A stretch of 57,933 nt of DNA from a virus (Duplodnaviria; Caudoviricetes): the IMG/VR virus record IMGVR_UViG_3300028767_000024, positions 1 to 57,933 of that record; one strand, 5' to 3'. Positions 1 to 52,204 of the stretch are shown here, piece after piece. Position numbers and translations under genes: made by a program. The notes beneath the pieces are model-generated. The model was not told the DNA's origin. It worked only from the letters and a program-made list of their open reading frames with translations, and made no database searches. How positions within the stretch are numbered: the stretch's first letter is position 1; every line of letters starts with the position of its first letter.

Positions 1-132
1 ACAGGGAATCGAAGTGCTGCCACTAACACAGGGGATCAAAGTGCTGCCACTAACACAGGGTATCAAAGTGCTGCCACTAACACAGGGTCTCAAAGTGCTG
101 CCACTAACACAGGGGATCAAAGTGCTGCCACT
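1..132 (+). repeat. 27-bp tandem repeat, ~4.9 copies visible (truncated by window edge)
   Basis: Unit ACAGGG-NNT-CRA-AGTGCTGCCACTAAC starting at 1, 28, 55, 82 and 109. Confidence 0.95.
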
Positions 133-330
133 GTTAATGGGGATGATTCGGTTGCATGTTCGATTGGATACAAAGGAACGGCAAGTGCATCACTGGGATC
201 AGCCATTGTATTGGCTGAACGAGATGATAACTATAAACTGATCACTATTAAGTCTGCCATTATTGACGGAGTAATTTTAAAGGCTAACGTATTTTACACA
301 CTGATTGATGGCGAGTTCGTTGAAGTATAA
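1..330 (+). CDS. 5'-truncated phage protein with 9-aa TGxxSAATN repeats (probable DUF7666-type repeat protein)
   Basis: Frame 1 is open from base 1 to TAA at 328-330: TGNRSAATNTGDQSAATN...AIVLAERDDNYKLITIKSAIIDGVILKANVFYTLIDGEFVEV. The C-terminus matches the usual ending of this phage repeat family. The ORF-track call 14..241 is the wrong frame. Confidence 0.8.
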   Translation, partial: TGNRSAATNTGDQSAATNTGYQSAATNTGSQSAATNTGDQSAATVNGDDSVACSIGYKGTASASLGSAIVLAERDDNYKLITIKSAIIDGVILKANVFYTLIDGEFVEV

Positions 331-1799: not shown

Positions 1800-1832
1800 A
1801 TTGATAGTGAATCAACATAACAACCCAACACA

Positions 1833-2063
1833 ATGAAAAAGTTAATTATAATACTCGTTTTAATGCTTGGTGTGCTCACATCTCAGGCAGGAATCAAAGT
1901 AAGACACAGTAAGTCTCACGTAGTTCACAAGACTGCAAATAAGATCAGATATTACAAACGCCATCACCAGAATCATATCTTTCAGAGGTATCTGCAAACT
2001 TACCATCCCCACAAGGGAATTTTATCAACAACTTTTCAGCCAAAGGGACAAAGAATATTTTAG
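1833..2063 (+). CDS. small secreted basic His-rich protein
   Basis: MKKLIIILVLMLGVLTSQA resembles a Sec signal peptide; mature part rich in H/K/R. Confidence 0.6.
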   Translation: MKKLIIILVLMLGVLTSQAGIKVRHSKSHVVHKTANKIRYYKRHHQNHIFQRYLQTYHPHKGILSTTFQPKGQRIF

Positions 2064-2088
2064 TTATTAACAATTAATAAACACAAAC

Positions 2089-2499
2089 ATGAAAAACGAA
2101 TCAGTAATTGTAAAAGAAATCTGTTATCACGGCAATGAGTATTCAGATGCCCCAAATACAGTAGTATTGTCTTTTAATGCAAACAGCGTTGATCGTATTG
2201 CCCACGTAATGTCATTACTTGAGCACAATAAAGAGAAGCTAATAATTAACTCCATTCGTATTGATGCCTGTCCTTATTCCTTATGGCTTGAATACGATAA
2301 GGATAATTCCGAAACAGAAAACATTGATGCTGCTGATTGGAGAGATGATGGCGGACAGTTTATCATTACTTCGTACGGAATTTACTTTTACTCTCAATCC
2401 AAATGGGATGCATCTGATCAAATCAAGTCTGATTCAATATCCTTTGAAGAAATCATGGAAGGATTTAAAGAAGATTTGATTCCGGCTATTGGAAATTAA
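2089..2499 (+). CDS. hypothetical protein
   Basis: 136-aa ORF with A-rich leader. Confidence 0.7.
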   Translation: MKNESVIVKEICYHGNEYSDAPNTVVLSFNANSVDRIAHVMSLLEHNKEKLIINSIRIDACPYSLWLEYDKDNSETENIDAADWRDDGGQFIITSYGIYFYSQSKWDASDQIKSDSISFEEIMEGFKEDLIPAIGN

Positions 2500-2510
2500 A
2501 AATACTTATT

Positions 2511-2518
2511 TATATTTG
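2511..2518 (+). promoter_or_regulatory. Bacteroidota primary-sigma -7 promoter element (TAnnTTTG)
   Basis: TATATTTG at the start of a long intergenic region. Confidence 0.65.
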
Positions 2519-2522
2519 TCCT

Positions 2523-2660
2523 GTCGTTTGGAAGCGGCCTTTAAATAAACGGAGATTATGAATTCATGTTTTGCACATACGATTTTTTGTGAATCATGCT
2601 CGGTCATGTCTCCGTCTATAAACCATCAGGACTTCCAATTCCCTGATGGTTTTTCATTTT
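2523..2660 (+). ncRNA. candidate structured leader RNA A (kissing loop + terminator-like hairpin)
   Basis: 5' hairpin with TTGGAAG (2528-2534); middle stem ACGGAGA/TCTCCGT; 3' hairpin AAACCATCAGG/CCTGATGGTTT with loop CTTCCAA (2632-2638), then a T-tract. Confidence 0.55.
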
Positions 2661-2667
2661 ATAATAG

Positions 2668-2956
2668 GCGATAGGACAAGGGATTCTCACGAAGGTTAGG
2701 GGCTTATCGTAACATTACCGAAACCAAGGGAGGCGCAATCGGTACACCGGGACAAAGAGAGGAGGTGGCGTCAACGACTGTATGAAGTCAAAAGTTGCTC
2801 TCAAATTCGTTAAGCTCATACTGCGACGATGTAAGATGACGGGGACTGGCTCCACAAGCCTGTTGATTTGATTCTTGCAGTCCTAACCATTAACGATGAG
2901 TTTTTGGTTAGGAAGAACTAACTGTAAGAATCAAAAAAACTCCACCAAAGCCTGTT
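2668..2956 (+). ncRNA. candidate large structured non-coding RNA/DNA element
   Basis: No ORF of 60 aa or more, GC-richer than flanks by eye, several stems, and a long terminal hairpin flanked by a direct repeat. Confidence 0.45.
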
Positions 2957-3026
2957 AAAACTTCTATTAACTAATACAATAATTAACAACTAATTAAATA
3001 ATATTTAATACTAACTATTAATAATC

Positions 3027-3239
3027 ATGAATCAATACAACGTAATTTATTTAAAGCATGATCAAAAGTCTGATTCATGCATTGTAACTGCTAACCGCAA
3101 ATCTAAAGCAACTTCTCTCGTTCTATCTCAGGTTAAAGATGTTGAAAGGATACTTAGTGCAACCAGAGTGGAGAGGCAGTATTCCTCATTCGATATAAAC
3201 AAATTACTGTATTCAGGATTAAATACGCAAACTGCATGA
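3027..3239 (+). CDS. hypothetical protein
   Basis: 70-aa ORF after AT-rich leader, ATGA-coupled to next gene. Confidence 0.6.
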   Translation: MNQYNVIYLKHDQKSDSCIVTANRKSKATSLVLSQVKDVERILSATRVERQYSSFDINKLLYSGLNTQTA

Positions 3240-3619
3240 AACCTAGCGTAGTCAAACTCCTCCATATTTCCCTTTCCGTTTGCCCGGATCGACAATTTAT
3301 TATCCTAGGTCAAATTCAAAGTATTGAGCGCTTATTAAAGGTAACCAATACAAAGATCAGGGTAGTAGACAGAACCAAGAGTGAGGATAACGTATCTGTA
3401 TTCAGGGTAGTATTCCGGGATGAGATCAAGAGTCTATTCGACCGCATCTGTTCTGTTCAGGACTTGCTTCATATCTCTGGAAATTTAACGACTGATAGTG
3501 AATCGAATATTGAACTGGATGCAAAATACTTCTTAGCCTTTGACGGGTTAAAGAATGTATTTGATACCTCTGTTACAGCCATACCAACGGATGAATTTGA
3601 TCCTACGAGGGCTTATTAA
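3236..3619 (+). CDS. hypothetical protein
   Basis: 127-aa ORF. Confidence 0.6.
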   Translation: MKPSVVKLLHISLSVCPDRQFIILGQIQSIERLLKVTNTKIRVVDRTKSEDNVSVFRVVFRDEIKSLFDRICSVQDLLHISGNLTTDSESNIELDAKYFLAFDGLKNVFDTSVTAIPTDEFDPTRAY

Positions 3620-3671
3620 TTCACATTTAATCCCTGTTGAAATAGTATGTATAACCAAATACATATAAATT

Positions 3672-3956
3672 ATGAATCCAATATTACAAATACCAAACAT
3701 TACTAATCCGCTGGGAAAACATTGGCAGCAACCTGTAAAATCTAAAATCCTATTAGACGAGCATAATGCAGTTATGTCAGAATCCACGCTAAAGCAATTA
3801 CTCGAATATTCTGCATCAAGACCAACAGGCTTATATGCAGGAAAGATGTGGAGATCAGTTGATACGAAAGGGATTAACGCTCTACATTTCTGTTTTGAAC
3901 TTCCAGAAGATCCTGGAGCCGTATATATTCGTTCGCTGCCCATTTTAATACTGTAA
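3672..3956 (+). CDS. hypothetical phage protein
   Basis: IPNITNPLGKHWQQP...LLEYSASRPTGLYAGKMWR resembles a recurring small phage protein. Confidence 0.7.
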   Translation: MNPILQIPNITNPLGKHWQQPVKSKILLDEHNAVMSESTLKQLLEYSASRPTGLYAGKMWRSVDTKGINALHFCFELPEDPGAVYIRSLPILIL

Positions 3957-3960
3957 GAAT

Positions 3961-4218
3961 ATGGCTTTACTATCAGACGATCAGGACATACAGATAGCAT
4001 TATTCAGAATTGAAACAGGTGGGAATGGGGATTACTACCCACAGATATTTTATAAGGATTCAGAGGGTTTAAATCATACGGTTGGCGTGAGAATAGCCAT
4101 GAGTGGCGGTAATGCTCCCACTGATGTAAAACTTGCCGTTGCTGATCTTTATAGAGCCTTAGAAAAGCATGGACTAAACGAACATCCTATTAACGAACCC
4201 GAAAAATGGGATCTTTAA
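3961..4218 (+). CDS. hypothetical protein
   Basis: 85-aa ORF in operon. Confidence 0.65.
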   Translation: MALLSDDQDIQIALFRIETGGNGDYYPQIFYKDSEGLNHTVGVRIAMSGGNAPTDVKLAVADLYRALEKHGLNEHPINEPEKWDL

Positions 4219-4271
4219 AAAGGTTCACCTTGAGTGAGTATTTGGACCAAATTAACATTAAAATTAAAATC

Positions 4272-4490
4272 ATGTCAAGAAACACAGACCCTTTTGCACC
4301 GTGGAATAATCCGATGTACGAAAACGATCCGTTAGCGGCTCACAACAATCCTATGTATAAGGATGACCCATTTAAGCCGTGGAATGAACCTTTTGGATCA
4401 GTGAACGACCTTAACCGAGAAGAGAAATCTTCTTATGGAATAAGGCGAAATTATAGAGATAATTTAGAGGAAGAAGATTACGATTATTAA
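4272..4490 (+). CDS. small protein with three DPxxPWNNPMY-like 12-aa repeats
   Basis: The ATG at 4272 follows ATTAACATTAAAATTAAAATC, nearly identical to the leader of the next gene (4486-4506). Confidence 0.65.
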   Translation: MSRNTDPFAPWNNPMYENDPLAAHNNPMYKDDPFKPWNEPFGSVNDLNREEKSSYGIRRNYRDNLEEEDYDY

Positions 4491-4506
4491 CATTAAAACA
4501 AAAATC

Positions 4507-4644
4507 ATGGGGGAAATTAGAAATGAATTAAAACAGGCGTTTAAAGAAGATCCTTGGATAATGATTAAGCTGACGTTGCAGATAATCTTTGTTCTTGGGC
4601 TTAGTGTGGGTATTATTGTGCTTGCAGCCTGCTTAGGAGATTAG
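4507..4644 (+). CDS. small membrane protein (45 aa; below ORF-track cutoff)
   Basis: MGEIRNELKQAFKEDPWIMIKLTLQIIFVLGLSVGIIVLAACLGD, one TM helix, fills the gap between genes. Confidence 0.6.
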   Translation: MGEIRNELKQAFKEDPWIMIKLTLQIIFVLGLSVGIIVLAACLGD

Positions 4645-4667
4645 TAATAACCAATAATTAACAAGTT

Positions 4668-4898
4668 ATGAACAAGAAAGAAATCAAACAAATTGAAGAA
4701 GCAAAAGAGTTGATCGAACAGGCTTCGGCTATTATCGATGAGTTAAAGTGCACAAGAGAAAGTTATGCCGAAGAACGTTCCGAGAAATGGGCTGATTCAG
4801 ATGCAGGTCAGGAGTACGTTGATCAGACAGAACGGCCTGAAGGACTGTATGAATCGATCGTAGAGTTAAGCGAACAGTTTGACGAGTTTATATCATGA
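4668..4898 (+). CDS. hypothetical acidic coiled-coil protein
   Basis: 76 aa; ERSEKWADSDAGQEY motif typical of a small phage protein family. Confidence 0.7.
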   Translation: MNKKEIKQIEEAKELIEQASAIIDELKCTRESYAEERSEKWADSDAGQEYVDQTERPEGLYESIVELSEQFDEFIS

Positions 4899-5557
4899 GA
4901 ATGCTACGCGGAATCATAGGTTGTGAAGAATCACAGACAGTATGTAAGGCATTTAGAGCGTTAGGGCACGAAGTTTACAGTTGTGATTTACAGCCATGTT
5001 CGGGAGGAGAACCTCAGTGGCATATTCAGGACGATATTCTTAATCACCTGAATGACGGATGGGACTTTGCCATTTTCCATCCCGATTGCACTTTCTTAAC
5101 TGTGTCCGGTAATAAGTGGTTCACTCCTCAGCCAAATAGAGTATCTGGTAAATTAGTTGGACAGGATAGAGTGGATGCAAGGGATAAGGCAGTAGAATTC
5201 TTTATGAAGCTAATAAATGCCCCGATACAGCACATCGCAGTAGAGAATCCTATTGGCGTCATGAGCACGCTTTACCGCAAGCCCGACCAAATTATTAACC
5301 CATTTCAGTTCGGTCATCCTGAGCCAAAGAAAACGTGTCTGTGGCTAAAGAATCTTCCATTACTTACGCCTACTAAAATTGTGGAACCGGAATGGTTTAC
5401 AACTAAGTCTGGTAAGAGGATGCCTACCTGGTCACATAAACCTTCTCCTTCTCCCGAAAGACAAAAGATGAGGTCGGTTACTTTCCAAGGAATTGCTGAT
5501 GCCATGGCAAAGCAATATAGCGAATACTTAATCAACTACTATGAGACGCCACAGTAA
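4895..5557 (+). CDS. putative DNA cytosine methyltransferase (short phage type)
   Basis: GCEESQTVCKAFRALGHEVYSCDL, FHPDCTFL, IAVENPIG, INPFQFGH..KKTCLWLKNLP, RSVTFQGIADAMAKQY. Confidence 0.75.
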   Translation: MRMLRGIIGCEESQTVCKAFRALGHEVYSCDLQPCSGGEPQWHIQDDILNHLNDGWDFAIFHPDCTFLTVSGNKWFTPQPNRVSGKLVGQDRVDARDKAVEFFMKLINAPIQHIAVENPIGVMSTLYRKPDQIINPFQFGHPEPKKTCLWLKNLPLLTPTKIVEPEWFTTKSGKRMPTWSHKPSPSPERQKMRSVTFQGIADAMAKQYSEYLINYYETPQ

Positions 5558-6833: not shown

Positions 6834-7252
6834 GATATTGTAATTTTAATTGGGTCGGCTGCATTATTCAGAATATCAAATAGACGAAAGAAAATGTCGT
6901 GAGAGTCGGTTAATTGACCTACGATAGAGTTTTTTCCAACAAGAATACATCCGGCAGTATTAGCAGAAGTTGTTCCGTTGTGTATACGAATACCTTCAAA
7001 CCCTGGCACATTTAGAAGCAAAGGCATGATTCTCTGGAAGCGATTGGACCAATTCAAGATAACCGTATATGTTCCCGACGGAATAGCGGTCTGTGCATAC
7101 ACCTTTTCTTCGCCGGGATCAGTTATATCCCCATCATGGTTGTAATCCCTGTCCCTATCCTCCAGTGTTTCAGAAAATAATACGCCGTCGATAAAAAGTT
7201 TACCGATGGTATATGTCGATCTTCGTGCAATTCTTTTAAGTTTTAGTTCCAT
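6830..7252 (-). CDS. DUF5675 family putative endolysin
   Basis: YTIGKLFIDG..FSETLED..TAIPSGTY..LLNVPGFEGIRIHNG....TAGCILVG. Confidence 0.85.
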   Translation of the reverse strand: MELKLKRIARRSTYTIGKLFIDGVLFSETLEDRDRDYNHDGDITDPGEEKVYAQTAIPSGTYTVILNWSNRFQRIMPLLLNVPGFEGIRIHNGTTSANTAGCILVGKNSIVGQLTDSHDIFFRLFDILNNAADPIKITIS

Positions 7253-13464: not shown

Positions 13465-16400
13465 TATACAGTTGTGTCTCTAGCGATTAATTGTAATTTT
13501 AAATGAAGGTTTCCTGCCGAATCCAAGAATGCTATCCTCGTAGGAGTTCCGGCATCACCAATAGAATAGAAATTAACATTTCCTGACCCTTGCATTTTAT
13601 TTGCATACACATTTACTTCACCTGCTTTGACTTCAACCCAAGATGGAGAAACTTCATCCGATGTTCTTTTTGACAGGACAACAGATGAAGTCTCTGCGTC
13701 TGAAGTAACATGATTCCCGCTTATTTCTACGTGCTGTATCGCGGCAGTGTCATTGACCAGAAGCGTATTGCTTTCAATATCATTGGCACTAAAGTTTTGA
13801 TCGATATCTCCATTGATGTAAGCTGCTCCGATATTTGATCTTGCAATGCCACGTTTTACATTATCCCCTGATGTATTATCGGAATCCAATAAATCGTATT
13901 GAGGAGTATAAAGTATCGGGGTTACATTGAATTTTAATTCTCCTAATTCTTCGTCAAGATATAATGAGTTATCCGTAGAAAGAGCAGTTGTAATAGGACT
14001 TTTATTGACCATCACTCCACCGACATGCCTTGCTTCGTTATCGGTATAGGTTGCAATTGGAATATCGATTGTATCCAAGAACGCTAAGGCGCCAAAAGTA
14101 TAATCTACATTCATGTCAATCCCTTCTCCATACTCATCCGTTACTGCAAAATGAAGCGTATTGTCAGTCTTGGTAATGGCAGTAAGCTGATAATCCGTAG
14201 AACTTCCACCTGACGATACAGATTTTAAAGTGTTGGTTGCAAAGTCATAGAATAATCCTGCACCAACATTAAGGTTCATTATCGTAGTTGCAGCCAAGGT
14301 AGCCGAAGTACGGATATCTGCCGAATAATTAGCCTTTAATGCCAATGCACCTTGACCTAAAGTTCCGCCGGCAGTCCACGAAGGGGTAGGAGTCCATCCT
14401 ATTGCCGGGATAGCCTTAGTTACATTTATCTTAACGGAAGTTCCATCTGTAAGAGCCACTTCGGTTGCTATCCCATCGATAAGTGGTTTCTGTGTAAATG
14501 TGAATGAGTCCTCAGAGTCCTGCTCAATAAGATACACTCCCGTATCCAGATCGTCTAAAACGATATCCTGTACGTTAACTTTTATTTCTTCATCAAGTGT
14601 CTCTAAACCTATATGATCGCCTTCTAAAATAGATTTAAACCTAAGTACGGTACCTGTCTTATCTTTATACCATCCGATTCCGACTCCTACGTTACTTGCC
14701 GCATTGGATTCTCCTCCTCCCGTTCCGGTAGCTGTCACGTCGATTTCATCATTCGCCGTAGACACAAACTGAACTGATCCGTCAGTAGAGATTAATGGCC
14801 TAAATCGTAATACAGGCGCAACGCCTTCCGGGGTATCTGTCACGCGGAACACTTCGGCATAGCTTGCAGTGGTCGACACTACCGCTTCGTTCAGTCCGTC
14901 AACCGCAAGTTGTAAAGAGAAATCAAGATCGTTATCCAAAAGGTTATCTACAATCACGACCCTTGCATCATCCGGTTTAATTCCCTTGATCGGTAAATCT
15001 GACCCCACTTTGGGTAAACTTAAATCAAAAGCGGTAATTGAACCATCATATCTTAGCGCATTTGCCTGTCCTGATGTCGGTGAATTATCTAACTGCACCC
15101 ATGTACTGCCAATTCTACCGTAGTAGTGTCCTGAGTCATAAACAACAACATGATCTGAAGTTGCATATCTTGGTCTTTGTGCTAAATTAATTCCTCCTGG
15201 CACTTTTAATTCAGCCTGTGCTGATACCCATTGTAATCCTGCCTGTGCCGAAAAACCCCTATTGGTATCACCTGTGGCGCCGGAAGATATTTGAATCATC
15301 CCCGTAAGTCCGTCGTCTGATGCGTGAGGAATAATCGTAGAATTAAATGCATTGGCGCCTAACTGTAATACCAGGTCAGATAATCCGTTTCTTACAAAGG
15401 TAACCTTGAATGCATCTGAAGTAGTACCTACATCTGCCGTAGCCTTAGTAACTGCGCTCAAATAGTTATTAGCCCCCGTTGCGAAGTCTACCCAATTGTC
15501 ATTATCGTAATACTGAGGCTTAACTACCCCTCCGGCATCTACAAATTGAACCATTCCGCCTGATGGAGTATTATCTGTATCGAAGGTTCCAATCTTAACT
15601 TCCTGCCCAACATCAAGCCTATTATTAACCCTTAACCATCCTGTTGAAAAGTCACCATACAGCAAGGATCCTAGTCTTTCCAATTCCTGTGATGCGTAAT
15701 TTACATTGCCGACATAGAACTTATTGTTTTCGGATTCAAGCTTCCCTGCATAAGCTCCCACAGCGACCATTCCTGAAACATTGGACGAGATGCTTTGTCC
15801 GGCATAATTTCCAAGTAGGGTATTCCAGCTTCCTGTTGATAGTGATCCTCCTGCCTGCTCGCCTGCAAGAAGGTTGCCCTCCATATTTGCACCCCACGAC
15901 AGGTTCCTGGTAATCCCATGCCCAATTAAGGTATTCTTTCTTCCCAAATACTGAAGCACACTCTTTAGGGTCGCATCTATGCCGTTTTTAGCCTGTATGC
16001 CGGTGAATCCTGTAAAATCTAATGTCTTGGTGGTCTTGTTGTATTTAAAGGATATATCGCCTCCAATCGTGTTATTGTCATCGAACAGGACTTTTTGATC
16101 CCCCGGCAGTGTAATTGTATTCTCAACTGAGTCCAGCCATGCCAATGGTCCCAATGGAACGGTCTTGGTGGTAGAATCATTCATCGTCAGGATTAACGTA
16201 TTTCCTTCGGCCTGTCTTAATGCAGATACCAGAAAATCTTCCTTACGCCATGATGGATTCTTATTTACGTCGAGTTTCCAAATATAATTGCCGGCAGGAG
16301 AATCATTGCCCCTATGTACAATCCCATGTGCGGTTTTGGTATTGAATTCGCCGGACAGATAAGGAAGATACTTGATATAATTCAAATCATTATCCCATAC

Positions 16401-41937: not shown

Positions 41938-44270
41938 TAGTTATAAGTAGTTGCGCCTAAGCTAAATACCTCATCTGAATCACCGAAATCTTTCGACATG
42001 ATCTCAGCATAAGGGCTTTCATCCCCAAATAATGCCTCGATCACAGCAGAAAGTCCATCATACCCGGTAAGCTGTTCCATTGAGGATATTTCATCAGCTT
42101 CTTTCATCCACTCTTTGACCTTCTGAATTCGTGAGTGAAATGTAATAAAATTTCCTAATAATGCGAATCCATCCTTTTTATTTTCTGGTCCCATGTGAGT
42201 TCCCGGTTTTGCAGCCTTTCTCATGTCTCCCTGTGCAGATATTTCTACGTCATAATTCAGGTATCCGCCCATTCTCCATTCGATCAATCTTTCCCATACT
42301 TCTGATCTGTTGCGCTCACAATGTATCAATCCTCCATAGTAAATAGCTGCCATTAAAGCCTCGTTTGCAGCTTCTATGGATGAAGATAGCCTTTCCCGAA
42401 AGAATGCCACAATCTGTCTTGTTGTCCATTCTGCGGGATTATCGGACTTATCAATTTCCTTATCGCGTTTGCGTAAAACACAGATACCGGTGTCAGATTT
42501 TTTAGTATGACCGCCCTTAATATGAACTGCTTCTGCATTATTCGAAAATTGAGCAGGGTCTAATCCTACGATAAATTTAGGATCAGCAGGTCGGTTTACA
42601 AGTATCTCATCATCTTCAATCGCACTGTAATCCATCATTGACGACATCCTGTTTGCTGTTCCATAAGGCATCTCGTAGGAAATCACCCATCGACCATCTG
42701 CACATTCGTTGAACCCAACAATATAGTGCGCTTTGTCAATCCAATAGAAATTACCTCGCTTGGATTGAGATTTATTTTCAAGTTCGATAATTTTTTCTCT
42801 GAGCTTGTCGTTATCAAGCCCCAACTGTCCCGATACTCCTGTCCAGCACTCATCGTAGTCTTCGGGGAATTTACGGACAAAACTCTTTAGGTCACTCATC
42901 TTCTTCGGATCATCGGGCACGTTTAAATCCTTGCGTTTATTCCGAATATAAGCCGAGCTCCCAATTCTGCTTTCGAAACCTGCCTGAATCTGTCTTGGAG
43001 TTGGTTTCTCATAAACAGGATTGCCCCATGCATCAATAAATCCTTCCAAACAAAACGAACTTGGCATATAACAAAGGGATAATCCAGACGTTGTTTGTCC
43101 GTCAGCTTTTCTCTGGTAAAAATTTGAACTGTCTGCCATCTCCTTAAAATCTGCCCCACCCTCATTCATTTGTTCTACCGTGGATGGGTGCATGCAGAAT
43201 CCGATAATCTTTGATCCGCCACCAAGAGACATTGTTTCTTTGTTGATCTGCCAACGTGTTTGTACATTTCCGGTTCTCTTTCCTTTACCTTGTTCGTCGT
43301 ATCCTGCCGCAAGTATCATTTTTCCGTCATTAGCGAGGTCTTCTGCTGATTCGGTATAGTTTATCATGCAATCAAGAGTTTCGATGTCTGTGGGCATAGA
43401 AGCGGTAAATTCTAACTGTTTGACCACATTCATTCCACCCTTCCAAATTGGCTTAAGGAATAAATACCAACTATTCCAGGCGGGAATCAGTTTCTTCCTA
43501 AAATGTGTTTCTGCGTTTTCTCCTCCAAGGCTCACGATAGTGCCCAATTTATCGGCACCACGCTCACTTGTCATTATCCGGGTTATGATATGGCAGTATT
43601 CATTTGTCAATCCTCCGCGCCTATCTTTAGGCTCAATAGTTCCGAAGAATGTTCTCTTTCCTACATCTGCCATCCGGTAAACAAGTTTGCCATTTTCGTC
43701 CATAACCTTATAAGCAATGCCTTCTTTATCCAAGTCAGCAAACGTTTCGGTAGTATTCCAAATGTAATGGCGAAACAGGAAGCGGTATAATCCCTTTTTA
43801 CGATACTCAGGATATTGATAACCCTTCTCGGTTGTCATTCGATGAATATTCAGATATGAAAAATACCAACCCGGAATGAACGTAGGCTTACCGTCAATAT
43901 AACACCAATACCCGTAATTCATGAAGTAAATGAATCGCTTAATAAAGTTGATTTCATCTACGTAATTATTTCGGTCAGCTTCAAGTGTATTCCAATACGC
44001 CTGTAATATGTTTACCCCATTAGCCGACCTTACTGAATCCTGAAAGTCGCGTAGTATTTTCTTTTGAAGTGCCATCAATTTTATTGGCATCTCGAATCTA
44101 TTGAATTTTTGATCGTCAGGATGTAACCCAAATCCGTCAATTAGTGAAAGTTTTGGTGGTGCAGGTAAACTTATACGAATTGGTCGTAAATTCTTGGAGT
44201 TGAAGTTTACGACAAAAGACCGGTCTGCATCGGTATAAAGTGGGGAATATTTGCAGTAGTCATCGCTCAT
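41934..44270 (-). CDS. terL: terminase large subunit
   Basis: GYWCYIDGKPTFIPGWYFSYL; Walker A-like PKDRRGGLT; Walker B AGYDEQGK; RKFP; RNase-H-like IVGLDP; IHCERN. Confidence 0.9.
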   Translation of the reverse strand: MSDDYCKYSPLYTDADRSFVVNFNSKNLRPIRISLPAPPKLSLIDGFGLHPDDQKFNRFEMPIKLMALQKKILRDFQDSVRSANGVNILQAYWNTLEADRNNYVDEINFIKRFIYFMNYGYWCYIDGKPTFIPGWYFSYLNIHRMTTEKGYQYPEYRKKGLYRFLFRHYIWNTTETFADLDKEGIAYKVMDENGKLVYRMADVGKRTFFGTIEPKDRRGGLTNEYCHIITRIMTSERGADKLGTIVSLGGENAETHFRKKLIPAWNSWYLFLKPIWKGGMNVVKQLEFTASMPTDIETLDCMINYTESAEDLANDGKMILAAGYDEQGKGKRTGNVQTRWQINKETMSLGGGSKIIGFCMHPSTVEQMNEGGADFKEMADSSNFYQRKADGQTTSGLSLCYMPSSFCLEGFIDAWGNPVYEKPTPRQIQAGFESRIGSSAYIRNKRKDLNVPDDPKKMSDLKSFVRKFPEDYDECWTGVSGQLGLDNDKLREKIIELENKSQSKRGNFYWIDKAHYIVGFNECADGRWVISYEMPYGTANRMSSMMDYSAIEDDEILVNRPADPKFIVGLDPAQFSNNAEAVHIKGGHTKKSDTGICVLRKRDKEIDKSDNPAEWTTRQIVAFFRERLSSSIEAANEALMAAIYYGGLIHCERNRSEVWERLIEWRMGGYLNYDVEISAQGDMRKAAKPGTHMGPENKKDGFALLGNFITFHSRIQKVKEWMKEADEISSMEQLTGYDGLSAVIEALFGDESPYAEIMSKDFGDSDEVFSLGATTYNY

Positions 44271-44968
44271 TGGTCGCCTATGAATTTTAAAACAGGAATC
44301 TCATAATTTGATCCATAAGGGGTAATATCAACGACAGGTTCTCCGCGCTCTTTTTTAGTTATCAACTGTTCGGGACGAAGATCAAGACTTTTTCTATATG
44401 AGTCTTCGTAGAGCAAATTAACCAACGTTCGATCCTCCATTCCTGAAAATATTTTATAATTTAACTTATCAATATCTTCACGTATATCTTCCGCATTTTG
44501 TTTTGCTTTTTGTAGGTCTGACGGCTTATCGTAGTTATATTTCTGTAAATCTTTCATTACATTATAATACATTTCGTTGTACACCGAATGCATCAGCCAA
44601 TCTGAATCCCACTGTATGAATAGGTATAACATTATCAAGTCTGAAAATTGCGGATTCTTATTGAATATTATCGACTCAGACTCTACAGTAAATTTAAGTA
44701 GATTCCCATCATTAATCGTTGGAAATCCGGCTCTGATAGCACTTTCCTTTTTTTTCTGAATCCACCTAGACTTAAATTCTATGGCTATATGCGAATTCTT
44801 ATCATACGCAAATACCATATATCTCACAAGCATAGGAATAGTTATCCCAAGTGGCGGATCAATTTCTGAAACCAAATCACTAAACCCTCTGTCCAAATTA
44901 TATAACTCACTAATAATGTCATCATCAGTAGCGCCTGTTTGGATTAGACATCTTCCGTTTCCTGCCAT
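44267..44968 (-). CDS. hypothetical helical protein, possible terminase small subunit
   Basis: Coupled (ATGA) immediately upstream of terL; function inferred from position only. Confidence 0.4.
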   Translation of the reverse strand: MAGNGRCLIQTGATDDDIISELYNLDRGFSDLVSEIDPPLGITIPMLVRYMVFAYDKNSHIAIEFKSRWIQKKKESAIRAGFPTINDGNLLKFTVESESIIFNKNPQFSDLIMLYLFIQWDSDWLMHSVYNEMYYNVMKDLQKYNYDKPSDLQKAKQNAEDIREDIDKLNYKIFSGMEDRTLVNLLYEDSYRKSLDLRPEQLITKKERGEPVVDITPYGSNYEIPVLKFIGDQ

Positions 44969-45002
44969 AAATTATCGTTTTGTCAAAACTAATAAATATA
45001 TT

Positions 45003-45820
45003 TTATATTTCACATACACTATTATCCGGGAAATTTAACCGAGCAAAATCACCGCGCAATTCACGCACACGCTGGTCAAATGCATGAGCAGCGTCTATTT
45101 CATTATCGAAATATCCTAAATGCAATTGCTTACCATTATAATGTAACCACGCCCTCCATCGCCCATCTCTTTTAAACCATGAAACTCCCCTATATTTTGA
45201 TGTAGCCAATTCGTGTTTTAGCCCAGTGCACGTTTCAGATGCCCTGTTTTTATCTTCGTCTGTCCAAACCCTCCTTAATCCGCCTATTCTCAACTTTTTA
45301 TCCTCGTCACTTAAACTTTTCCAAAATTCAATATGAGAATCACTTAGTCTTTTTTTTGCAATTTCAGTGGCGTGACCTCCGGTTAACTTTATTGACGCTT
45401 TAGCTGCCGCAATCCGCCTACTTTCTTTAGATCTTTGTTTTAGTGCAATAATAATTTTATCAACCGCTTCCTTTTTATGCCTCCATCCGGCAGGACTACC
45501 ATCTCCGCCCTTAGTCCCATTGGTTAAGTTTTCTCCGTAGCTGATATCCAGTATCGTTCCCTTTCCTGCCATTCCTGCCTGCGAACCTTTTCGATAATGA
45601 TCAATTCAGGGTATAAGTCTAATTTCATCAATTCGTTCAACCATCTTGATTTGCGCGTGTTCGTATTTGCTTCATATCGATGGTCAGTAAATCTTTTTTG
45701 GGGATGTATTGATTTCCCAACATACCTAATTTCGCCGGATATAGGGCACTTTAGTCCATATATAAAACAATAATAATTAACCAAACCCCCTTTTTCTTCA
45801 TTGATTTTTAGCTTATCCAT
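45003..45820 (-). pseudogene. GIY-YIG homing endonuclease with NUMOD3-like and AP2 domains, frameshifted at ~45540
   Basis: FIYGLKCP..IRYVGKS..RFTDH..ERERYWIS in one frame continues as YGENLTNGTKGGDG..SKYRGVSW..WRAWL..LHLGYFDNEIDAAHAFD..ARLNF in another. Confidence 0.75.
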
Positions 45821-45832
45821 TTTTTTTAAATT

Positions 45833-45922
45833 AAAAACCCACAACCAGAGGAACGAGCTCCGGCAATGGGTTTCGTGAGTTATTACTAACTCAATATCTT
45901 CATGTAAATCTCGTTCATTTAC
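45833..45922 (-). ncRNA. candidate structured leader RNA C (kissing loop + terminator-like hairpin)
   Basis: GTAAAT-GAACGAG-ATTTAC; TGAGTTA-GTAA-TAACTCA; AAACCCATTGCCGGAG-CTCGTTC-CTCTGGTTGTGGGTTT-TT. Confidence 0.6.
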
Positions 45923-45926
45923 CCGA

Positions 45927-45934
45927 CCAAGATA
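45927..45934 (-). promoter_or_regulatory. Bacteroidota -7 promoter variant
   Basis: TATCTTGG (1 mismatch to TAnnTTTG) directly before leader C. Confidence 0.45.
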
Positions 45935-45970
45935 TAAAACTATTTTCAAAATCTACGCTCATATATAAAT

Positions 45971-45996
45971 AAAAAGGCATCCCGAAGAATGCCTTT
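45971..45996 (-). terminator. intrinsic terminator
   Basis: AAAGGCAT...ATGCCTTT hairpin with T-tract on - strand after 46017..46739. Confidence 0.65.
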
Positions 45997-46016
45997 AAAT
46001 ATGAGATCAAATAAGA

Positions 46017-46739
46017 TTACTCGGCAGCTACAGTCAATGAGACCGTCCAGTTTTTACTTGTGATGCCATCGCTTGCAACTAATGCGTACACAACAGGTGT
46101 GGCAAAGCTGTTACTTGTGGCAGCACTTGTCTGCGCGGTAACTCCGATATTGGTAGACGATGATCCGCCGGTGCCGCTCCTCGTCCAAGTTGCGACCTGT
46201 GTGGTGCTTGTGCCAAATGGGGCTGTCAACGATACGGTTTTTGCAGCAACATTTATCGAGCTTGTGCTTCCGACCACAGGAATTGTAAATGTCAAAAAGT
46301 CAGCAGCATTACTTGCAACCAAAGTTGCTAACGTGCTATTGATATATTTCGTTTTGTTCTTAAACTGCCCGTCAGCAAAAATAAATGCAACTGCGGCGGT
46401 TTTAGTTCCTGAAATGTTTACGTAGGTATCTTTCAGTGAAATAAGATATTTCTCATTAAAAGATGTTGCAGTGGTTACGCCGGTAGTAGTGTCAAATACG
46501 TTGACGGTAAGCAAGGTAATTGCCGAATCGGTAGCGACCAAAGAATCAACTGCTGCCTTATTAACCGTAAGCGTAAGCGACTCTGGCTCCCAATTAGATG
46601 TAGCCTCATTCACATATCGAACTACGGCATAACCGGCCGAATTCTGATAATAATACACAATATTGCGAAGATTAATCGCAATTGTCTCGTTCGGAGTGAC
46701 CGATATTCCATTCTTTGAACTAACTGTTACTGTTTTCAT
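46017..46739 (-). CDS. putative head-decoration protein with C-terminal Ig-like (DUF5018-like) domain
   Basis: AADFLTFTIP..SINVAAKTVSLTAPFGT..NSFATPVVYALVASDG..WTVSL; own promoter and terminator. Confidence 0.6.
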   Translation of the reverse strand: MKTVTVSSKNGISVTPNETIAINLRNIVYYYQNSAGYAVVRYVNEATSNWEPESLTLTVNKAAVDSLVATDSAITLLTVNVFDTTTGVTTATSFNEKYLISLKDTYVNISGTKTAAVAFIFADGQFKNKTKYINSTLATLVASNAADFLTFTIPVVGSTSSINVAAKTVSLTAPFGTSTTQVATWTRSGTGGSSSTNIGVTAQTSAATSNSFATPVVYALVASDGITSKNWTVSLTVAAE

Positions 46740-50991: not shown

Positions 50992-51579
50992 TTAATTATT
51001 TTTAGTTGTTAACTTCCAGATAAATCCACCAGCCATTTCCGACCTTCCGTGTGTGCAGTTCGATATACTCGTTCCTAATATTCCAGTGTTTTCCGTAGCG
51101 TATCTTATGCAATCAAAGGTGTTGATTAATTCTCCTTTTAAATCTCTCTGTTCTACAATCTTTCGCGCAAAGCTAAATTCTCCTAGCTTACCCTTCCCTG
51201 ACGATACCCTTCCCCCAACTCTATATGCGTGAATACAATCCTCTGACTTAGTGGCCCATTCTAAATTAGACGCGTAGGGATTAAGTCTATTGCTATCTAT
51301 GTGATTAACGCATGGTTTATTTTTCGGATTAGGAATAAACGCGATTGCGACAAGTCTGTGCACCCGGTGCACCATGAATTTTCCGTTGTTGTCGGTTAGA
51401 TTTACGGTCCAGTATCCAGTAGTCGCTATTTGCTGAACCTTTAGCCTAGCTTTCATTGTGGCCAGACAGTATCCTCTCCTCACCTGTCTCTCGTATCTCC
51501 AAACCCTACCAAGATTACTAACCTGATATAACCCTTCATAACCAACTACATCTTTCCAAATTTCTTCTTGATTTTCCAT
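50992..51579 (-). CDS. NUMOD4-HNH-NUMOD1 homing endonuclease
   Basis: EIWKDVVGYEGLYQVSNLGRV; VHRLVAIAFIPNP..VNHIDSNRLN..SNLEW; VEQRDLKGELINTFDCI..AGGFIWK; true start probably the ATG at 51579. Confidence 0.9.
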   Translation of the reverse strand: MENQEEIWKDVVGYEGLYQVSNLGRVWRYERQVRRGYCLATMKARLKVQQIATTGYWTVNLTDNNGKFMVHRVHRLVAIAFIPNPKNKPCVNHIDSNRLNPYASNLEWATKSEDCIHAYRVGGRVSSGKGKLGEFSFARKIVEQRDLKGELINTFDCIRYATENTGILGTSISNCTHGRSEMAGGFIWKLTTKNN

Positions 51580-51581
51580 AT

Positions 51582-51686
51582 TAAAATACCCATACCAATC
51601 ACAAGGGCGATCCAGTCCTGCGAAGTTGCAGATAGGCAATGTGACTAATATGGGATTTTTAAATGTTTTCATAACTGAATCGCGAT
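51582..51686 (-). ncRNA. candidate structured leader RNA B (pseudoknot + long hairpin)
   Basis: 5' GCGATTCAGT pairs with ACTGGATCGC in the loop of the 15-bp stem CCCATATTAGTCACA/TGTGATTGGTATGGG, then TATTTT. Confidence 0.55.
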
Positions 51687-51687
51687 A

Positions 51688-51695
51688 CAAAGATA
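51688..51695 (-). promoter_or_regulatory. Bacteroidota -7 promoter element
   Basis: TATCTTTG directly before leader B. Confidence 0.65.
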
Positions 51696-51706
51696 TAAAA
51701 ATATTT

Positions 51707-52204
51707 CTACTTAGTGAAATTAAAGCGTAATTTTTCAATCGACTCCTCAGCCTTTTCGATAGCTTCAATAACTTCGGCATCAGTACATTCATCTGAAAGA
51801 AATGCATTAGCTCTATCCATGAGCCTGACAAATACTGCATTTTGTTCATGGATAATACCGTAGAGTCCGTAATCCTTGGCAGTAGAAAAATTATTGCGCG
51901 TATTGGATTCTTCTTCCTGGTGTTCAAAACACGTTTTCAAATACTTATCAACCATCTGTTTAAATGGTGCATCGTATTCAGACCTGTCGTCCAGAACTCT
52001 TTTACTATGGGAAACAGAACAATGCCCTTTTAATCCAAATCTTTTTGCATTATCGTCCTGACACATCCTATGGCTCTGTTCCACATAAACCATACATAGC
52101 ATCCTGGCAAGGACTTCTTCTCCTTTCCTGGTCTTGGTAAACATTTTTTGAATGTTCGCCCCGGTCGTCTTTGCAGCTAAAAGCTCATGAAATTTATAGG
52201 TCAT
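51707..52204 (-). CDS. protein with DnaA C-terminal (domain IV)-like HTH
   Basis: KTRKGEEVLARMLCM...RFGLKGHCSVSHS mirrors the DnaA domain IV pattern KxRxxxIVxARQxAMY..FGxRDHxTVxH. Confidence 0.6.
   Translation of the reverse strand: MTYKFHELLAAKTTGANIQKMFTKTRKGEEVLARMLCMVYVEQSHRMCQDDNAKRFGLKGHCSVSHSKRVLDDRSEYDAPFKQMVDKYLKTCFEHQEEESNTRNNFSTAKDYGLYGIIHEQNAVFVRLMDRANAFLSDECTDAEVIEAIEKAEESIEKLRFNFTK

What the first reader, a model, noticed from the sequence alone, without database searches (positions are those of the whole stretch)
2511..2660. Leader RNA A: promoter, kissing-loop pair and terminator-like hairpin, one of three with the same architecture
Just after TATATTTG, the hairpin GTCGT-TTGGAA-GCGGC exposes TTGGAAG (2528-2534). 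This is the exact complement of CTTCCAA (2632-2638) in the loop of an 11-bp hairpin followed by a T-tract, and a middle stem (2549-2555/2609-2615) lies between them. Elements at 45833-45934 and 51582-51695 show the same design with unrelated sequence. Recurrence of architecture without sequence identity suggests a shared attenuation/antitermination or RNA-stabilising module placed in front of risky or selfish cargo. I cannot assign it to a named Rfam family. A 38-codon ORF (2558-2674) runs through it and could be a leader peptide.
Basis: partly seen in the sequence, partly recalled or inferred. Interest (0 to 1): 0.75.

Follow-up and report, generated by a model that had tools for sequence, protein, structure and literature searches.

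The report
Kissing-loop leader RNA, orphan copy
This is a small folded RNA leader whose first hairpin loop pairs with the loop of a terminator-like hairpin, a design that in related phages of Bacteroidota sits directly in front of selfish homing-endonuclease genes, although this particular copy has no such gene behind it.

Summary
All motifs are at the stated coordinates and the region folds much better than shuffles (z -4.5). A bare 7-nt loop-loop match is common in this AT-rich window, so it proves nothing alone.

The significance comes from context. A Bacteroidota -7 promoter box places the predicted transcript start on the first base of hairpin 1. The partner lies in the apical loop of a strong hairpin followed by a U-tract.

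The same design recurs in window element B, before a GIY-YIG homing endonuclease. It recurs in 11 further leaders before HNH endonucleases in other phage contigs, including cultured Flavobacterium phages.

Across these 13 leaders the 7-bp loop-loop helix is Watson-Crick at 91 of 91 positions, with 13 different sequences. Homologous leaders differ only by compensated pairs. Element C and five others pair the transcript's 5' end with the hairpin interior instead.

One subtype scores just under threshold as Rfam c4-2, the phage P1 c4 antisense RNA clan. A, B and C hit no Rfam family.

Most likely this is a portable throttle for endonuclease expression, combining attenuation with a poor, partly occluded start site. 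Element A is an orphan or co-opted copy with no ORF for about 370 nt. The mechanism is untested.

The parts
2511..2518 (+). Bacteroidota-type -7 promoter box (TAnnTTTG). It is the only one on the + strand in the first 9 kb of the window.
   Evidence: One search lists all boxes. Passages of PMC6847099 place the G of the box at -5, so +1 is predicted at 2523.
2523..2538 (+). Hairpin 1, starting at the predicted transcript start. Its loop region carries the 7-mer X (2528-2534).
   Evidence: -4.1 kcal/mol. It holds two G.U pairs, so it forms only on the + strand transcript.
2549..2615 (+). Middle hairpin (outer stem 2549-2555/2609-2615). This is an insertion relative to most other leaders of the family.
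   Evidence: -19.9 kcal/mol. Other leaders have a 10-22 nt single-stranded linker here.
2620..2652 (+). Hairpin 3: 11-bp stem and 11-nt apical loop containing X' (2632-2638), the exact complement of X.
   Evidence: -14.8 kcal/mol; loop-loop duplex -7.2 kcal/mol.
2650..2660 (+). U-rich tail of hairpin 3 (terminator-like).
   Evidence: Not called by the simple scan because the loop exceeds 8 nt.
2558..2674 (+). 38-codon ORF proposed as a leader peptide; no support found.
   Evidence: One search lists it. No Pfam match. No homologues to test.
2661..3026 (+). ORF-free spacer behind element A, where the other leaders have an endonuclease gene. GC is 0.50 in 2680-2870.
45834..45934 (-). Element B. 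Box 45934-45927; hairpin 1 at 45922-45904 (7-nt loop 45916-45910); small middle hairpin; hairpin 3 at 45874-45834 (7-nt apical loop 45857-45851); U/A-rich tail; ATG at 45823.
   Evidence: The loops are 7 of 7 complementary.
45003..45823 (-). Cargo of B: a GIY-YIG domain ORF (45823-45524) and an AP2-domain ORF (45572-45003) in different frames, overlapping by 49 nt.
51589..51695 (-). Element C. Box 51695-51688; 5' segment 51683-51674 starting at the predicted +1; hairpin 3 core 51654-51589, whose interior (51616-51607) pairs with the 5' segment over 10 bp including one G.U; ATG at 51579.
50992..51579 (-). Cargo of C: a NUMOD4 + HNH_3 homing endonuclease.

Best explanation
Element A is a copy of a portable 5' leader RNA that, in phages with Bacteroidota-type promoters, belongs to free-standing homing-endonuclease (HEG) cassettes.

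Proposed working:
1. Host RNA polymerase starts at the first base of hairpin 1.
2. The loop of hairpin 1 (or, in a second form, the unpaired 5' end) pairs with the apical or interior loop of a long hairpin that carries a U-tract. This forms an intramolecular kissing complex (pseudoknot) that locks the roughly 100-140 nt leader into one compact fold with a base-paired 5' end.
3. The last hairpin with its U-tract stops most transcripts (attenuation).
4. In read-through transcripts the same hairpin sits 9-27 nt before the start codon, in an unusually U-rich and partly paired initiation region. Little endonuclease is therefore made, whatever the genomic context.
5. Each cassette uses its own private 7-12 nt pairing sequence.

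A is an orphan or co-opted copy. It probably ends the upstream small-gene operon, gives a roughly 135-nt RNA, and supplies the only recognisable promoter for the operon starting at 3027.

Shown here: anatomy, recurrence, covariation, cassette indel.
Inferred: transcription start, kissing in the RNA, termination, low translation.
For: Anatomy of A.

Transcript start: the -7 box has its G at -5 (passages of PMC6847099). This puts +1 on the first base of hairpin 1 in A, B, L007 and L010, and on the first base of the 5' pairing segment in C, L027 and L132.

Other promoters in the window (6039-, 46788-, 55988-) have short leaders of about 20-40 nt; their structure was not folded.

Family:
- In 8 of 34 leaders tested, the only two or three MFE apical loops are mutually complementary (p 0.001-0.0085 each against loop shuffles).
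- In 13 hairpin-hairpin leaders, 91 of 91 kissing pairs are Watson-Crick, with 13 different sequences.
- Homologous leaders differ only by pairs changed on both sides: L018 vs the Flavobacterium phage leader 1, L018 vs L026 2, L007 vs its paralogue in the same contig 4, L083 vs L105 1 plus one C-G to U.G.
- G.U pairs in helices fit RNA of the gene strand.

Survey of 165 distinct HNH-endonuclease upstream regions: 33 have a -7-type box 75-190 nt upstream. 14 of those 33 carry this pairing, against 1 of the other 132.

Genome scan of 447,836 bases: 13 box-linked places, of which 7 sit within 30 nt of an endonuclease start codon. Three endonuclease architectures are represented.

Cassette: a related phage has the two genes that flank B only 6 nt apart, without terminator, leader or endonuclease.

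Throttle: the 15 nt before the start codon are 59% T and 20% A in 18 leaders, against 29% T and 46% A for 48 window genes. A-rich unpaired initiation regions are favoured in Flavobacterium (abstract and passages of PMC6847099). In C the start codon is paired in the MFE fold.

Precedent: RNA structures limit translation of I-TevI, mobE and segB in T4-type phages (passages of PMC3014915).
Against: - No expression data. No RNA run holds the phage.
- A has no endonuclease or any ORF for about 370 nt, so its membership rests on architecture alone.
- A has no homologues, and four peat runs show no variation in it.
- A fails the MFE-loop test, and its hairpin 1 is weak (-4.1 kcal/mol).
- A bare 7-mer match is common by chance.
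- The terminator scan did not call hairpin 3.
- U-tracts are weak in 4 of 18 leaders: L083, L105, L132, L206.
- In the Flavobacterium phage the next gene starts 2 nt after the endonuclease gene. An efficient terminator there would be polar.
- Why a kiss is needed for attenuation is not explained.
- The sample was drawn with an endonuclease query, so the association is partly built in. Only the genome scan is free of that bias, and I set aside 5 of its 13 places as AT-rich chance hits by my own judgement.
Confidence: 0.5

Rival explanations
1. A c4-like small regulatory RNA. The last hairpin is released by termination, and perhaps RNase P-type processing, as a small RNA. Its loop is an antisense 'address'. 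The upstream complementary hairpin is the counterpart of the a1/b1 sites of phage P1/P7 c4 RNA. On this reading element A is a stand-alone small-RNA gene, not a relic.
For: - The last hairpin of L083 and L105 scores 40.4 and 34.8 bits against Rfam c4-2 RF02944 (gathering score 41). There the upstream segments pair with its hairpin loop and the adjacent junction.
- c4 RNA is made from the same operon as the genes it blocks (passages of PMC8198154).
- c4-2 is described as a likely distant homologue of a known RNA (passage of PMC5737381).
- Private, co-varying addresses resemble the P1/P7 difference (recalled).
- A has promoter, structured RNA and terminator but no ORF.
Against: - A, B and C give no c4-clan match even at E up to 10.
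- There is no second copy of the target near the start codon in 19 leaders.
- There is no convincing trans target in the window.
- In a terminated leader both partners sit in one molecule and would mask each other.
- The supplementary text on c4-2 could not be read.
Confidence: 0.2
2. For A only: an ordinary terminator of the upstream operon plus chance. The promoter-like box, the weak first hairpin and the 7-nt match are coincidences in AT-rich intergenic DNA.
For: - 7-nt loop-loop matches are frequent.
- A fails the MFE-loop test.
- There is no endonuclease behind it.
- Hairpin 3 lies 120 nt after the stop codon of the last gene of a + strand block.
Against: - By my estimate (about 5 background places in 116 kb, and about 1 kb of sequence within reach of the 98 boxes counted), about 0.04 box-linked strict hits are expected per window. 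Two are seen, and the other one (B) is validated by its cargo.
- In A the predicted +1 falls exactly on the first base of hairpin 1, as in other members.
- The hairpin-3 loop has the family's 'A then partner' layout.
- The whole region has z -4.46.
Confidence: 0.15
3. A stability and insulation module rather than an attenuator. The base-paired 5' end and compact knot protect the mRNA from 5'-end-dependent decay and keep upstream sequence from pairing with the start region. The U-rich tail is simply the initiation region.
For: - The 5' end is paired in all members.
- The distance from hairpin to start codon is fixed and short.
- U-tracts are weak in 4 of 18 leaders.
- A downstream gene abuts the endonuclease gene in the Flavobacterium phage.
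Against: - The U-rich pre-start region is the opposite of the A-rich regions of the phage's other genes and of what favours initiation.
- A simple 5' hairpin would suffice for protection.
- A has nothing to protect for about 370 nt.
Confidence: 0.1
4. A DNA-level element (a protein-binding inverted repeat, a cruciform or an endonuclease recognition feature) rather than an RNA.
For: Inverted repeats are symmetrical in DNA, and the elements travel with DNA endonucleases.
Against: - G.U pairs would be A.C on the other strand.
- The + strand folds better than the - strand.
- The U-tract is on one side only.
- The position relative to promoter and start codon is fixed.
- Sequences differ in every copy, which a shared binding protein would not tolerate.
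Confidence: 0.05

Closest known systems
Phage P1/P7 c4 antisense RNA with its a1/b1 sites (Rfam clan CL00128: c4 antisense RNA, c4-a1b1, c4-2)
   Same: - Phage RNA in which loops of a structured RNA are complementary to sites a short way upstream in the same transcript.
- The complementary sequences differ between relatives and co-vary.
- It is co-transcribed with the gene behind it.
- One subtype of the present family (L083, L105) matches c4-2 at 40.4 and 34.8 bits.
   Different: - A, B and C give no c4-clan match.
- Most members have one simple hairpin with a single 7-nt address instead of the multi-stem c4 fold.
- No downstream target overlaps the start region.
- The cargo is a homing endonuclease, not an antirepressor.
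- The host phylum is different.
- Details of a'/a1/a2 pairing and of RNase P processing are recalled, not read here.
RNA hairpins that limit homing-endonuclease translation in T4-type phages (I-TevI, mobE of Aeh1, segB)
   Same: A cis RNA structure directly before a phage homing-endonuclease gene keeps its expression low (passages of PMC3014915). In C the start codon is paired.
   Different: - The T4-type hairpins sequester a Shine-Dalgarno site and are bypassed by promoters inside the hairpin.
- Here there is no Shine-Dalgarno use, the promoter lies upstream of the whole structure, and there is a U-tract and a long-range loop-loop pairing.
Promoter-proximal terminators and attenuators (phage lambda PR'-tR' 6S RNA; countertranscript-driven attenuation of pT181/pIP501); kissing complexes of ColE1 RNA I/RNA II. 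All recalled.
   Same: - A promoter is followed within about 100-200 nt by a terminator before the regulated genes.
- Seven-nucleotide loops pair fully.
   Different: - Here the two kissing loops are in one molecule.
- The pairing does not overlap the terminator arms, so it cannot act as a classical antiterminator or preemptor.
- No antiterminator protein or antisense promoter was found.
int-alpA RNA (Rfam RF02996)
   Same: It lies behind the same type of promoter and directly before HNH endonuclease genes in other loci (L079 at 41.3 bits; similar by eye in L053, L061, L102, L109, L110 and L149). It also has a loop that can pair outside its hairpin.
   Different: - It is a different fold with conserved nucleotides.
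- Its loop pairs with sites in the 3' tail near the start codon, not with the 5' end.
- It is not present in the window.

Membership tests
   Box at 2511-2518, predicted +1 at 2523, which is the first base of hairpin 1.
   2528-2534 with 2632-2638, 7 of 7. One position is the closing G of hairpin 1, and the MFE fold shows a 4-nt loop.
   11 bp, -14.8 kcal/mol, T-rich 2650-2660.
   No ORF until 3027; no Pfam match in any stop-free frame of 2640-3030. All 7 other credible places meet this feature.
   No homologue of A was found. Four runs show no variant. Covariation is shown only for other members.
Rfam c4 clan (c4 antisense RNA, c4-2, c4-a1b1) | Covariance-model score at or above the gathering score | tested here: not met
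   0 matches at gathering in the whole window. No c4-clan match at E up to 10 in 2400-3100, 51450-51800 or 45750-46050.
Rfam c4 clan (c4 antisense RNA, c4-2, c4-a1b1) | Second target site overlapping the start region of the downstream gene | tested here: not met
   The best downstream partner of the loop within 130 nt is 5 nt. No match of 7 nt or more near 3027.
Intrinsic (Rho-independent) terminator | G+C-containing stem directly followed by a U-tract | tested here: met
Intrinsic (Rho-independent) terminator | Short loop (3-8 nt in the scan used) | tested here: not met
   The loop is 11 nt, and the scan found 0 sites in 2000-3500.
Intrinsic (Rho-independent) terminator | RNA 3' ends at the U-tract | not testable with these tools
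   No RNA run is listed.
Riboswitch / ligand-binding leader | Conserved nucleotides in unpaired positions across members | tested here: not met
   Alignment of 11 leaders has mean column identity 49%; the invariant columns are one A in the linker and T/A positions in the tail. The loop sequences differ in all 13 members.
Leader-peptide attenuator | Conserved short ORF whose translation would alter the terminator | tested here: inconclusive
   An ORF at 2558-2674 exists but has no family match and no homologue. The other members were not searched systematically for short ORFs; they are about 90-120 nt long.

The most novel reading that the evidence does not exclude
Homing-endonuclease cassettes of Bacteroidota phages carry a self-addressed RNA module. 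Each cassette has a private 7-12 nt RNA-RNA code between its transcript 5' end and its terminator hairpin. The code works as a c4-like, copy-specific feedback or immunity device: accumulated leader RNA acts on nascent leaders of the same cassette only. Endonuclease dosage would then be set per cassette, and cassettes sharing one genome would be kept orthogonal. Element A would be such a module that has lost, or never had, its endonuclease and now acts as a stand-alone small RNA or operon gate.
Probability: 0.15. Interest if true: 0.8.

Novelty: new variant of a known kind. Interest (0 to 1): 0.6.

Why it matters
How free-standing homing endonucleases are kept harmless to their phage is known mainly from T4-type phages, where hairpins hide the ribosome-binding site. 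Bacteroidota do not use Shine-Dalgarno sites.

The present data point to a different, portable solution. It is a promoter-proximal leader with a 5'-to-terminator-loop kiss, and it travels with at least three endonuclease architectures.

The same leader type is present in cultured Flavobacterium phages (34 records). Loop mutation and compensatory rescue can therefore be done at once.

It is also a clean natural set of short orthogonal kissing-loop pairs, and it links the P1 c4 RNA clan to endonuclease cassettes.

For the window itself, element A marks a probable operon boundary and the only recognisable promoter for the genes at 3027-5557.

Tried and rejected
- Homologues of A. The flanking proteins 2089-2499 and 3236-3619 gave no relative in viral contigs. 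An exact scan with the hairpin-3 sequence found nothing. megablast and blastn against phage records gave no match. blastn of 2500-3030 against the window and all held loci gave only chance matches.
- RNA evidence. No RNA holder is listed among 24 runs.
- Population variation. Contigs of 4 DNA runs laid on 1800-3800 show no difference inside 2511-2660 where covered (two of the four runs had no cover there), so there is no population-level covariation to use.
- Coding relic behind A. Eight stop-free segments gave no Pfam family below E 0.02.
- Covariance model of the family. Not built, because MAFFT alignments of the leaders did not put the helices in register. For the same reason count of structure pairs was not used; pair counts were made by script on the extracted partners.
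- Downstream or trans targets of the loops. None found.
- crAss001, first 50 kb. No box-linked kissing leader, so no link to its published transcriptome.
- Broad-window shuffle test. Only 1 of 33 leaders had p <= 0.01 and 7 of 33 had p <= 0.05, so that statistic is too blunt.
- The classic c4 papers are not held, and the supplementary text on c4-2 and int-alpA could not be read.
- Not-in-print claim. It rests on searches and on passages of PMC10690425. None describes a kissing-loop leader before homing endonucleases.

Full report
**What the window is.** The window is a 57.9-kb virus record, estimated 71% complete. It holds a portal and large terminase. 24 DNA runs labelled peat metagenome hold at least part of it, 16 of them half its sampled words or more, and no RNA run does. 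Its nearest relatives in viral contigs share only 52-63% identity in the terminase. Likely promoters are of the Bacteroidota type: an AT-rich stretch followed by TAnnTTTG. The start regions of its genes are A-rich. I did not establish the phage family.

**The observation.** The + strand RNA of 2511-2660 folds into three parts:
- hairpin 1 (2523-2538);
- a long middle hairpin closed by 2549-2555/2609-2615;
- an 11-bp hairpin (2620-2652) with an 11-nt loop and a U-rich tail.

The energy is -42.7 kcal/mol, z -4.46, and 0 of 200 shuffles fold as well. The opposite strand folds less well. Hairpin 1 holds two G.U pairs, so it exists only in the + strand transcript.

The 7-mer at 2528-2534 is the exact complement of 2632-2638 in the apical loop. 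The match cannot be extended on either side.

Rfam gives nothing at gathering score in the whole window. At E up to 10 in 2400-3100 it gives only seven far-sub-threshold hairpin-type matches.

**Is it more than chance?** Taken alone, no.
- With 4-bp hairpins allowed, the window holds 95 (+) and 103 (-) hairpin pairs within 160 nt whose loops share a 7-nt complement.
- In a shuffle test between the first 40 nt and the last 85 nt of 33 leaders, a 7-nt run had p of only 0.1-0.2.
- In the MFE fold of A the hairpin-1 loop is closed to 4 nt, so A fails a strict loop-against-loop test.
- The terminator scan did not call hairpin 3, because its loop exceeds 8 nt.

What makes A stand out is position. 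In Flavobacterium the G of the -7 box lies at -5 (passages of PMC6847099). The predicted first transcribed base is therefore 2523, exactly the first base of hairpin 1. A stricter detector requires two hairpins, an enclosing stem and a U-tract. It finds 7 places on both strands of the window, and only A and B lie directly behind a box. From the background rate I estimate about 0.04 such box-linked hits per window.

**Elements B and C.** Both are on the - strand. B consists of:
- the box at 45934-45927;
- hairpin 1 at 45922-45904, starting at the predicted +1, with a 7-nt loop;
- a small middle hairpin;
- hairpin 3 at 45874-45834, whose 7-nt apical loop is the exact complement of the first loop;
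- a U/A-rich tail and the ATG at 45823.

Its gene has a GIY-YIG domain, followed in another frame by an AP2-domain ORF.

C has the box at 51695-51688. A 10-nt segment begins at the predicted +1 and pairs (one G.U) with the interior of a long hairpin (51654-51589). The ATG follows at 51579 and opens a NUMOD4/HNH_3 endonuclease gene. So B shares A's design, while C is a variant in which the free 5' end, not a hairpin loop, is the partner. The other promoters of the window have short leaders.

**Relatives elsewhere.** I collected HNH endonuclease relatives:
- 26 loci from viral contigs;
- 80 loci from metagenome contigs;
- 80 loci from genome contigs.

After dropping identical copies and loci with under 150 nt upstream, and adding B and C, 165 distinct upstream regions remained. 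Of these, 33 have a -7-type box 75-190 nt upstream.
- 14 of the 33 show the 5'-to-last-hairpin pairing: B, C, L007, L010, L018, L026, L027, L069, L082, L083, L105, L122, L132, L168.
- Of the other 132, one does (L031).
- A further 6 of the 33 carry a different leader that resembles int-alpA RNA. L079 passes the Rfam threshold; the rest were judged by eye.

In 8 leaders the MFE fold has only two or three apical loops, and those loops are mutually complementary.

Scanning 447,836 bases (the window, three terminase loci and five whole virus records) gave 13 box-linked places.
- 7 precede an endonuclease start codon within 30 nt. Two are new: L206, a third endonuclease type with HNH_3 at 23.8 bits, just under its cutoff; and a second cassette in the contig of L007.
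- One is A.
- 5 have AT-only partners and no such gene. I take these as chance hits.

The L018-type leader is also present, at 81% identity, in 34 records of cultured Flavobacterium phages, before an annotated endonuclease.

**Covariation.** In the 13 hairpin-hairpin leaders the 7-bp helix is Watson-Crick at 91 of 91 positions, with 13 different sequences. Leaders that are clearly homologous in the rest of their sequence differ in this helix only by pairs changed on both sides:

| Comparison | Pairs changed on both sides |
|---|---|
| L018 vs the Flavobacterium phage | 1 |
| L018 vs L026 | 2 |
| L007 vs its paralogue in the same contig | 4 |
| L083 vs L105 | 1, plus one C-G to U.G |

No pair is broken. 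The stems that present the loops also change in a compensated way. This is good evidence that the pairing is selected, and that it acts in RNA of the gene strand. For A itself the test cannot be made. No homologue exists in any collection searched, and four runs show no variant.

**The leader belongs to the cassette.** In a related phage (L004) the homologues of the two genes that flank B are 6 nt apart. The terminator, promoter, leader and endonuclease gene of the window, about 1050 nt in all, are absent there.

**How it probably works.** The last hairpin is followed by a U-rich tail in most members. The 15 nt before the start codon are 59% T and 20% A in 18 leaders, against 29% T and 46% A in 48 genes of the window. 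In Flavobacterium, A-rich unpaired start regions favour initiation. In several folds the A-rich linker pairs with the tail, and in C the start codon itself is paired.

I therefore read the leader as a throttle with two parts:
- an intrinsic terminator that ends most transcripts;
- a poor, partly occluded start region for the rest.

The kiss locks the fold and buries the 5' end. This matches the general precedent that phage homing endonucleases are held down by RNA structure (passages of PMC3014915). None of it has been measured. The need for a kiss is not explained. In the Flavobacterium phage a gene abuts the endonuclease gene, so termination cannot be complete there.

**Relation to c4.** The last hairpin of L083 and L105 matches Rfam c4-2 at 40.4 and 34.8 bits (gathering score 41). 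In these two leaders the upstream segments pair with its hairpin loop and the adjacent junction. As I recall it, the a1/b1 sites pair with P1 c4 RNA in the same way. The 2017 paper calls c4-2 a likely distant homologue of a known RNA, and c4 is co-transcribed with the genes it blocks. This is the closest known system.

A, B and C do not match it. No second target near the start codon exists.

**What A is.** A meets every architectural feature of the family except the cargo. Behind it lie about 370 nt without an ORF, without protein similarity and without similar DNA, somewhat richer in G+C. Its box is the only one on the + strand in the first 9 kb. A probably both ends the upstream small-gene block and feeds the operon from 3027 to 5557, which includes a DNA methyltransferase. 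Whether it is a relic of a lost endonuclease cassette, a co-opted gate or a small-RNA gene cannot be decided here.

**Verdict.** The family is real and, as far as my searches show, undescribed except for the c4-2 subtype. The given element is its weakest and only cargo-less member.

Noticed in passing
window 2661-3026: A stretch of about 370 nt has no ORF on either strand. G+C is 0.50 in 2680-2870 against 0.40 overall, and a long imperfect hairpin at 2866-2936 is followed by a run of A. The + strand fold has z -3.4. There is no Rfam, Pfam or DNA match. Its nature is unknown.
   Followed up: partly
window 45003-45823 (- strand): The endonuclease behind element B is in two frames: a GIY-YIG ORF at 45823-45524 and an AP2-domain ORF at 45572-45003, overlapping by 49 nt. 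This could be a frameshifted pseudogene, a sequencing error or a programmed shift; it was not resolved.
   Followed up: partly
L079 617-680; by eye also L053, L061, L102, L109, L110, L149: A second leader type stands before HNH endonuclease genes behind the same promoter type. It is int-alpA RNA (RF02996, 41.3 bits in L079). Its internal loop is complementary to one or two sites in the 3' tail just before the start codon.
   Followed up: partly
L083 621-700 and L105 621-700: Matches to c4-2 RNA (RF02944) at 40.4 and 34.8 bits, just under the gathering score of 41, lie directly before an HNH endonuclease gene. Two upstream segments are complementary to its loop and junction.
   Followed up: yes
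L217 (record G005) 7163-7231 and 16077-16145: Two paralogous endonuclease cassettes sit in one 21-kb phage contig. Their leaders are homologous, with the same outer stem, but the loop-loop sequences differ at 4 of 7 pairs and the inner stems also differ. The two copies would not cross-pair.
   Followed up: partly
L004 8724-9992 versus window 44267-46739: In a related phage the two genes flanking element B and its endonuclease are only 6 nt apart. The upstream gene there ends in a tandem repeat of a short Thr/Ala/Pro-rich unit.
   Followed up: partly
window 1-330: The ORF running in from the left end encodes tandem copies of a short peptide unit (about seven residues, Ser/Ala/Thr/Asn/Gly-rich). 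The opposite strand is also open there.
   Followed up: no
L132 574-703 (genome contigs record titled as a Thiolinea MAG): A C-type leader with a Bacteroidota-type box lies on a 25-kb contig binned with a gammaproteobacterium. It may be a mis-binned phage contig.
   Followed up: no
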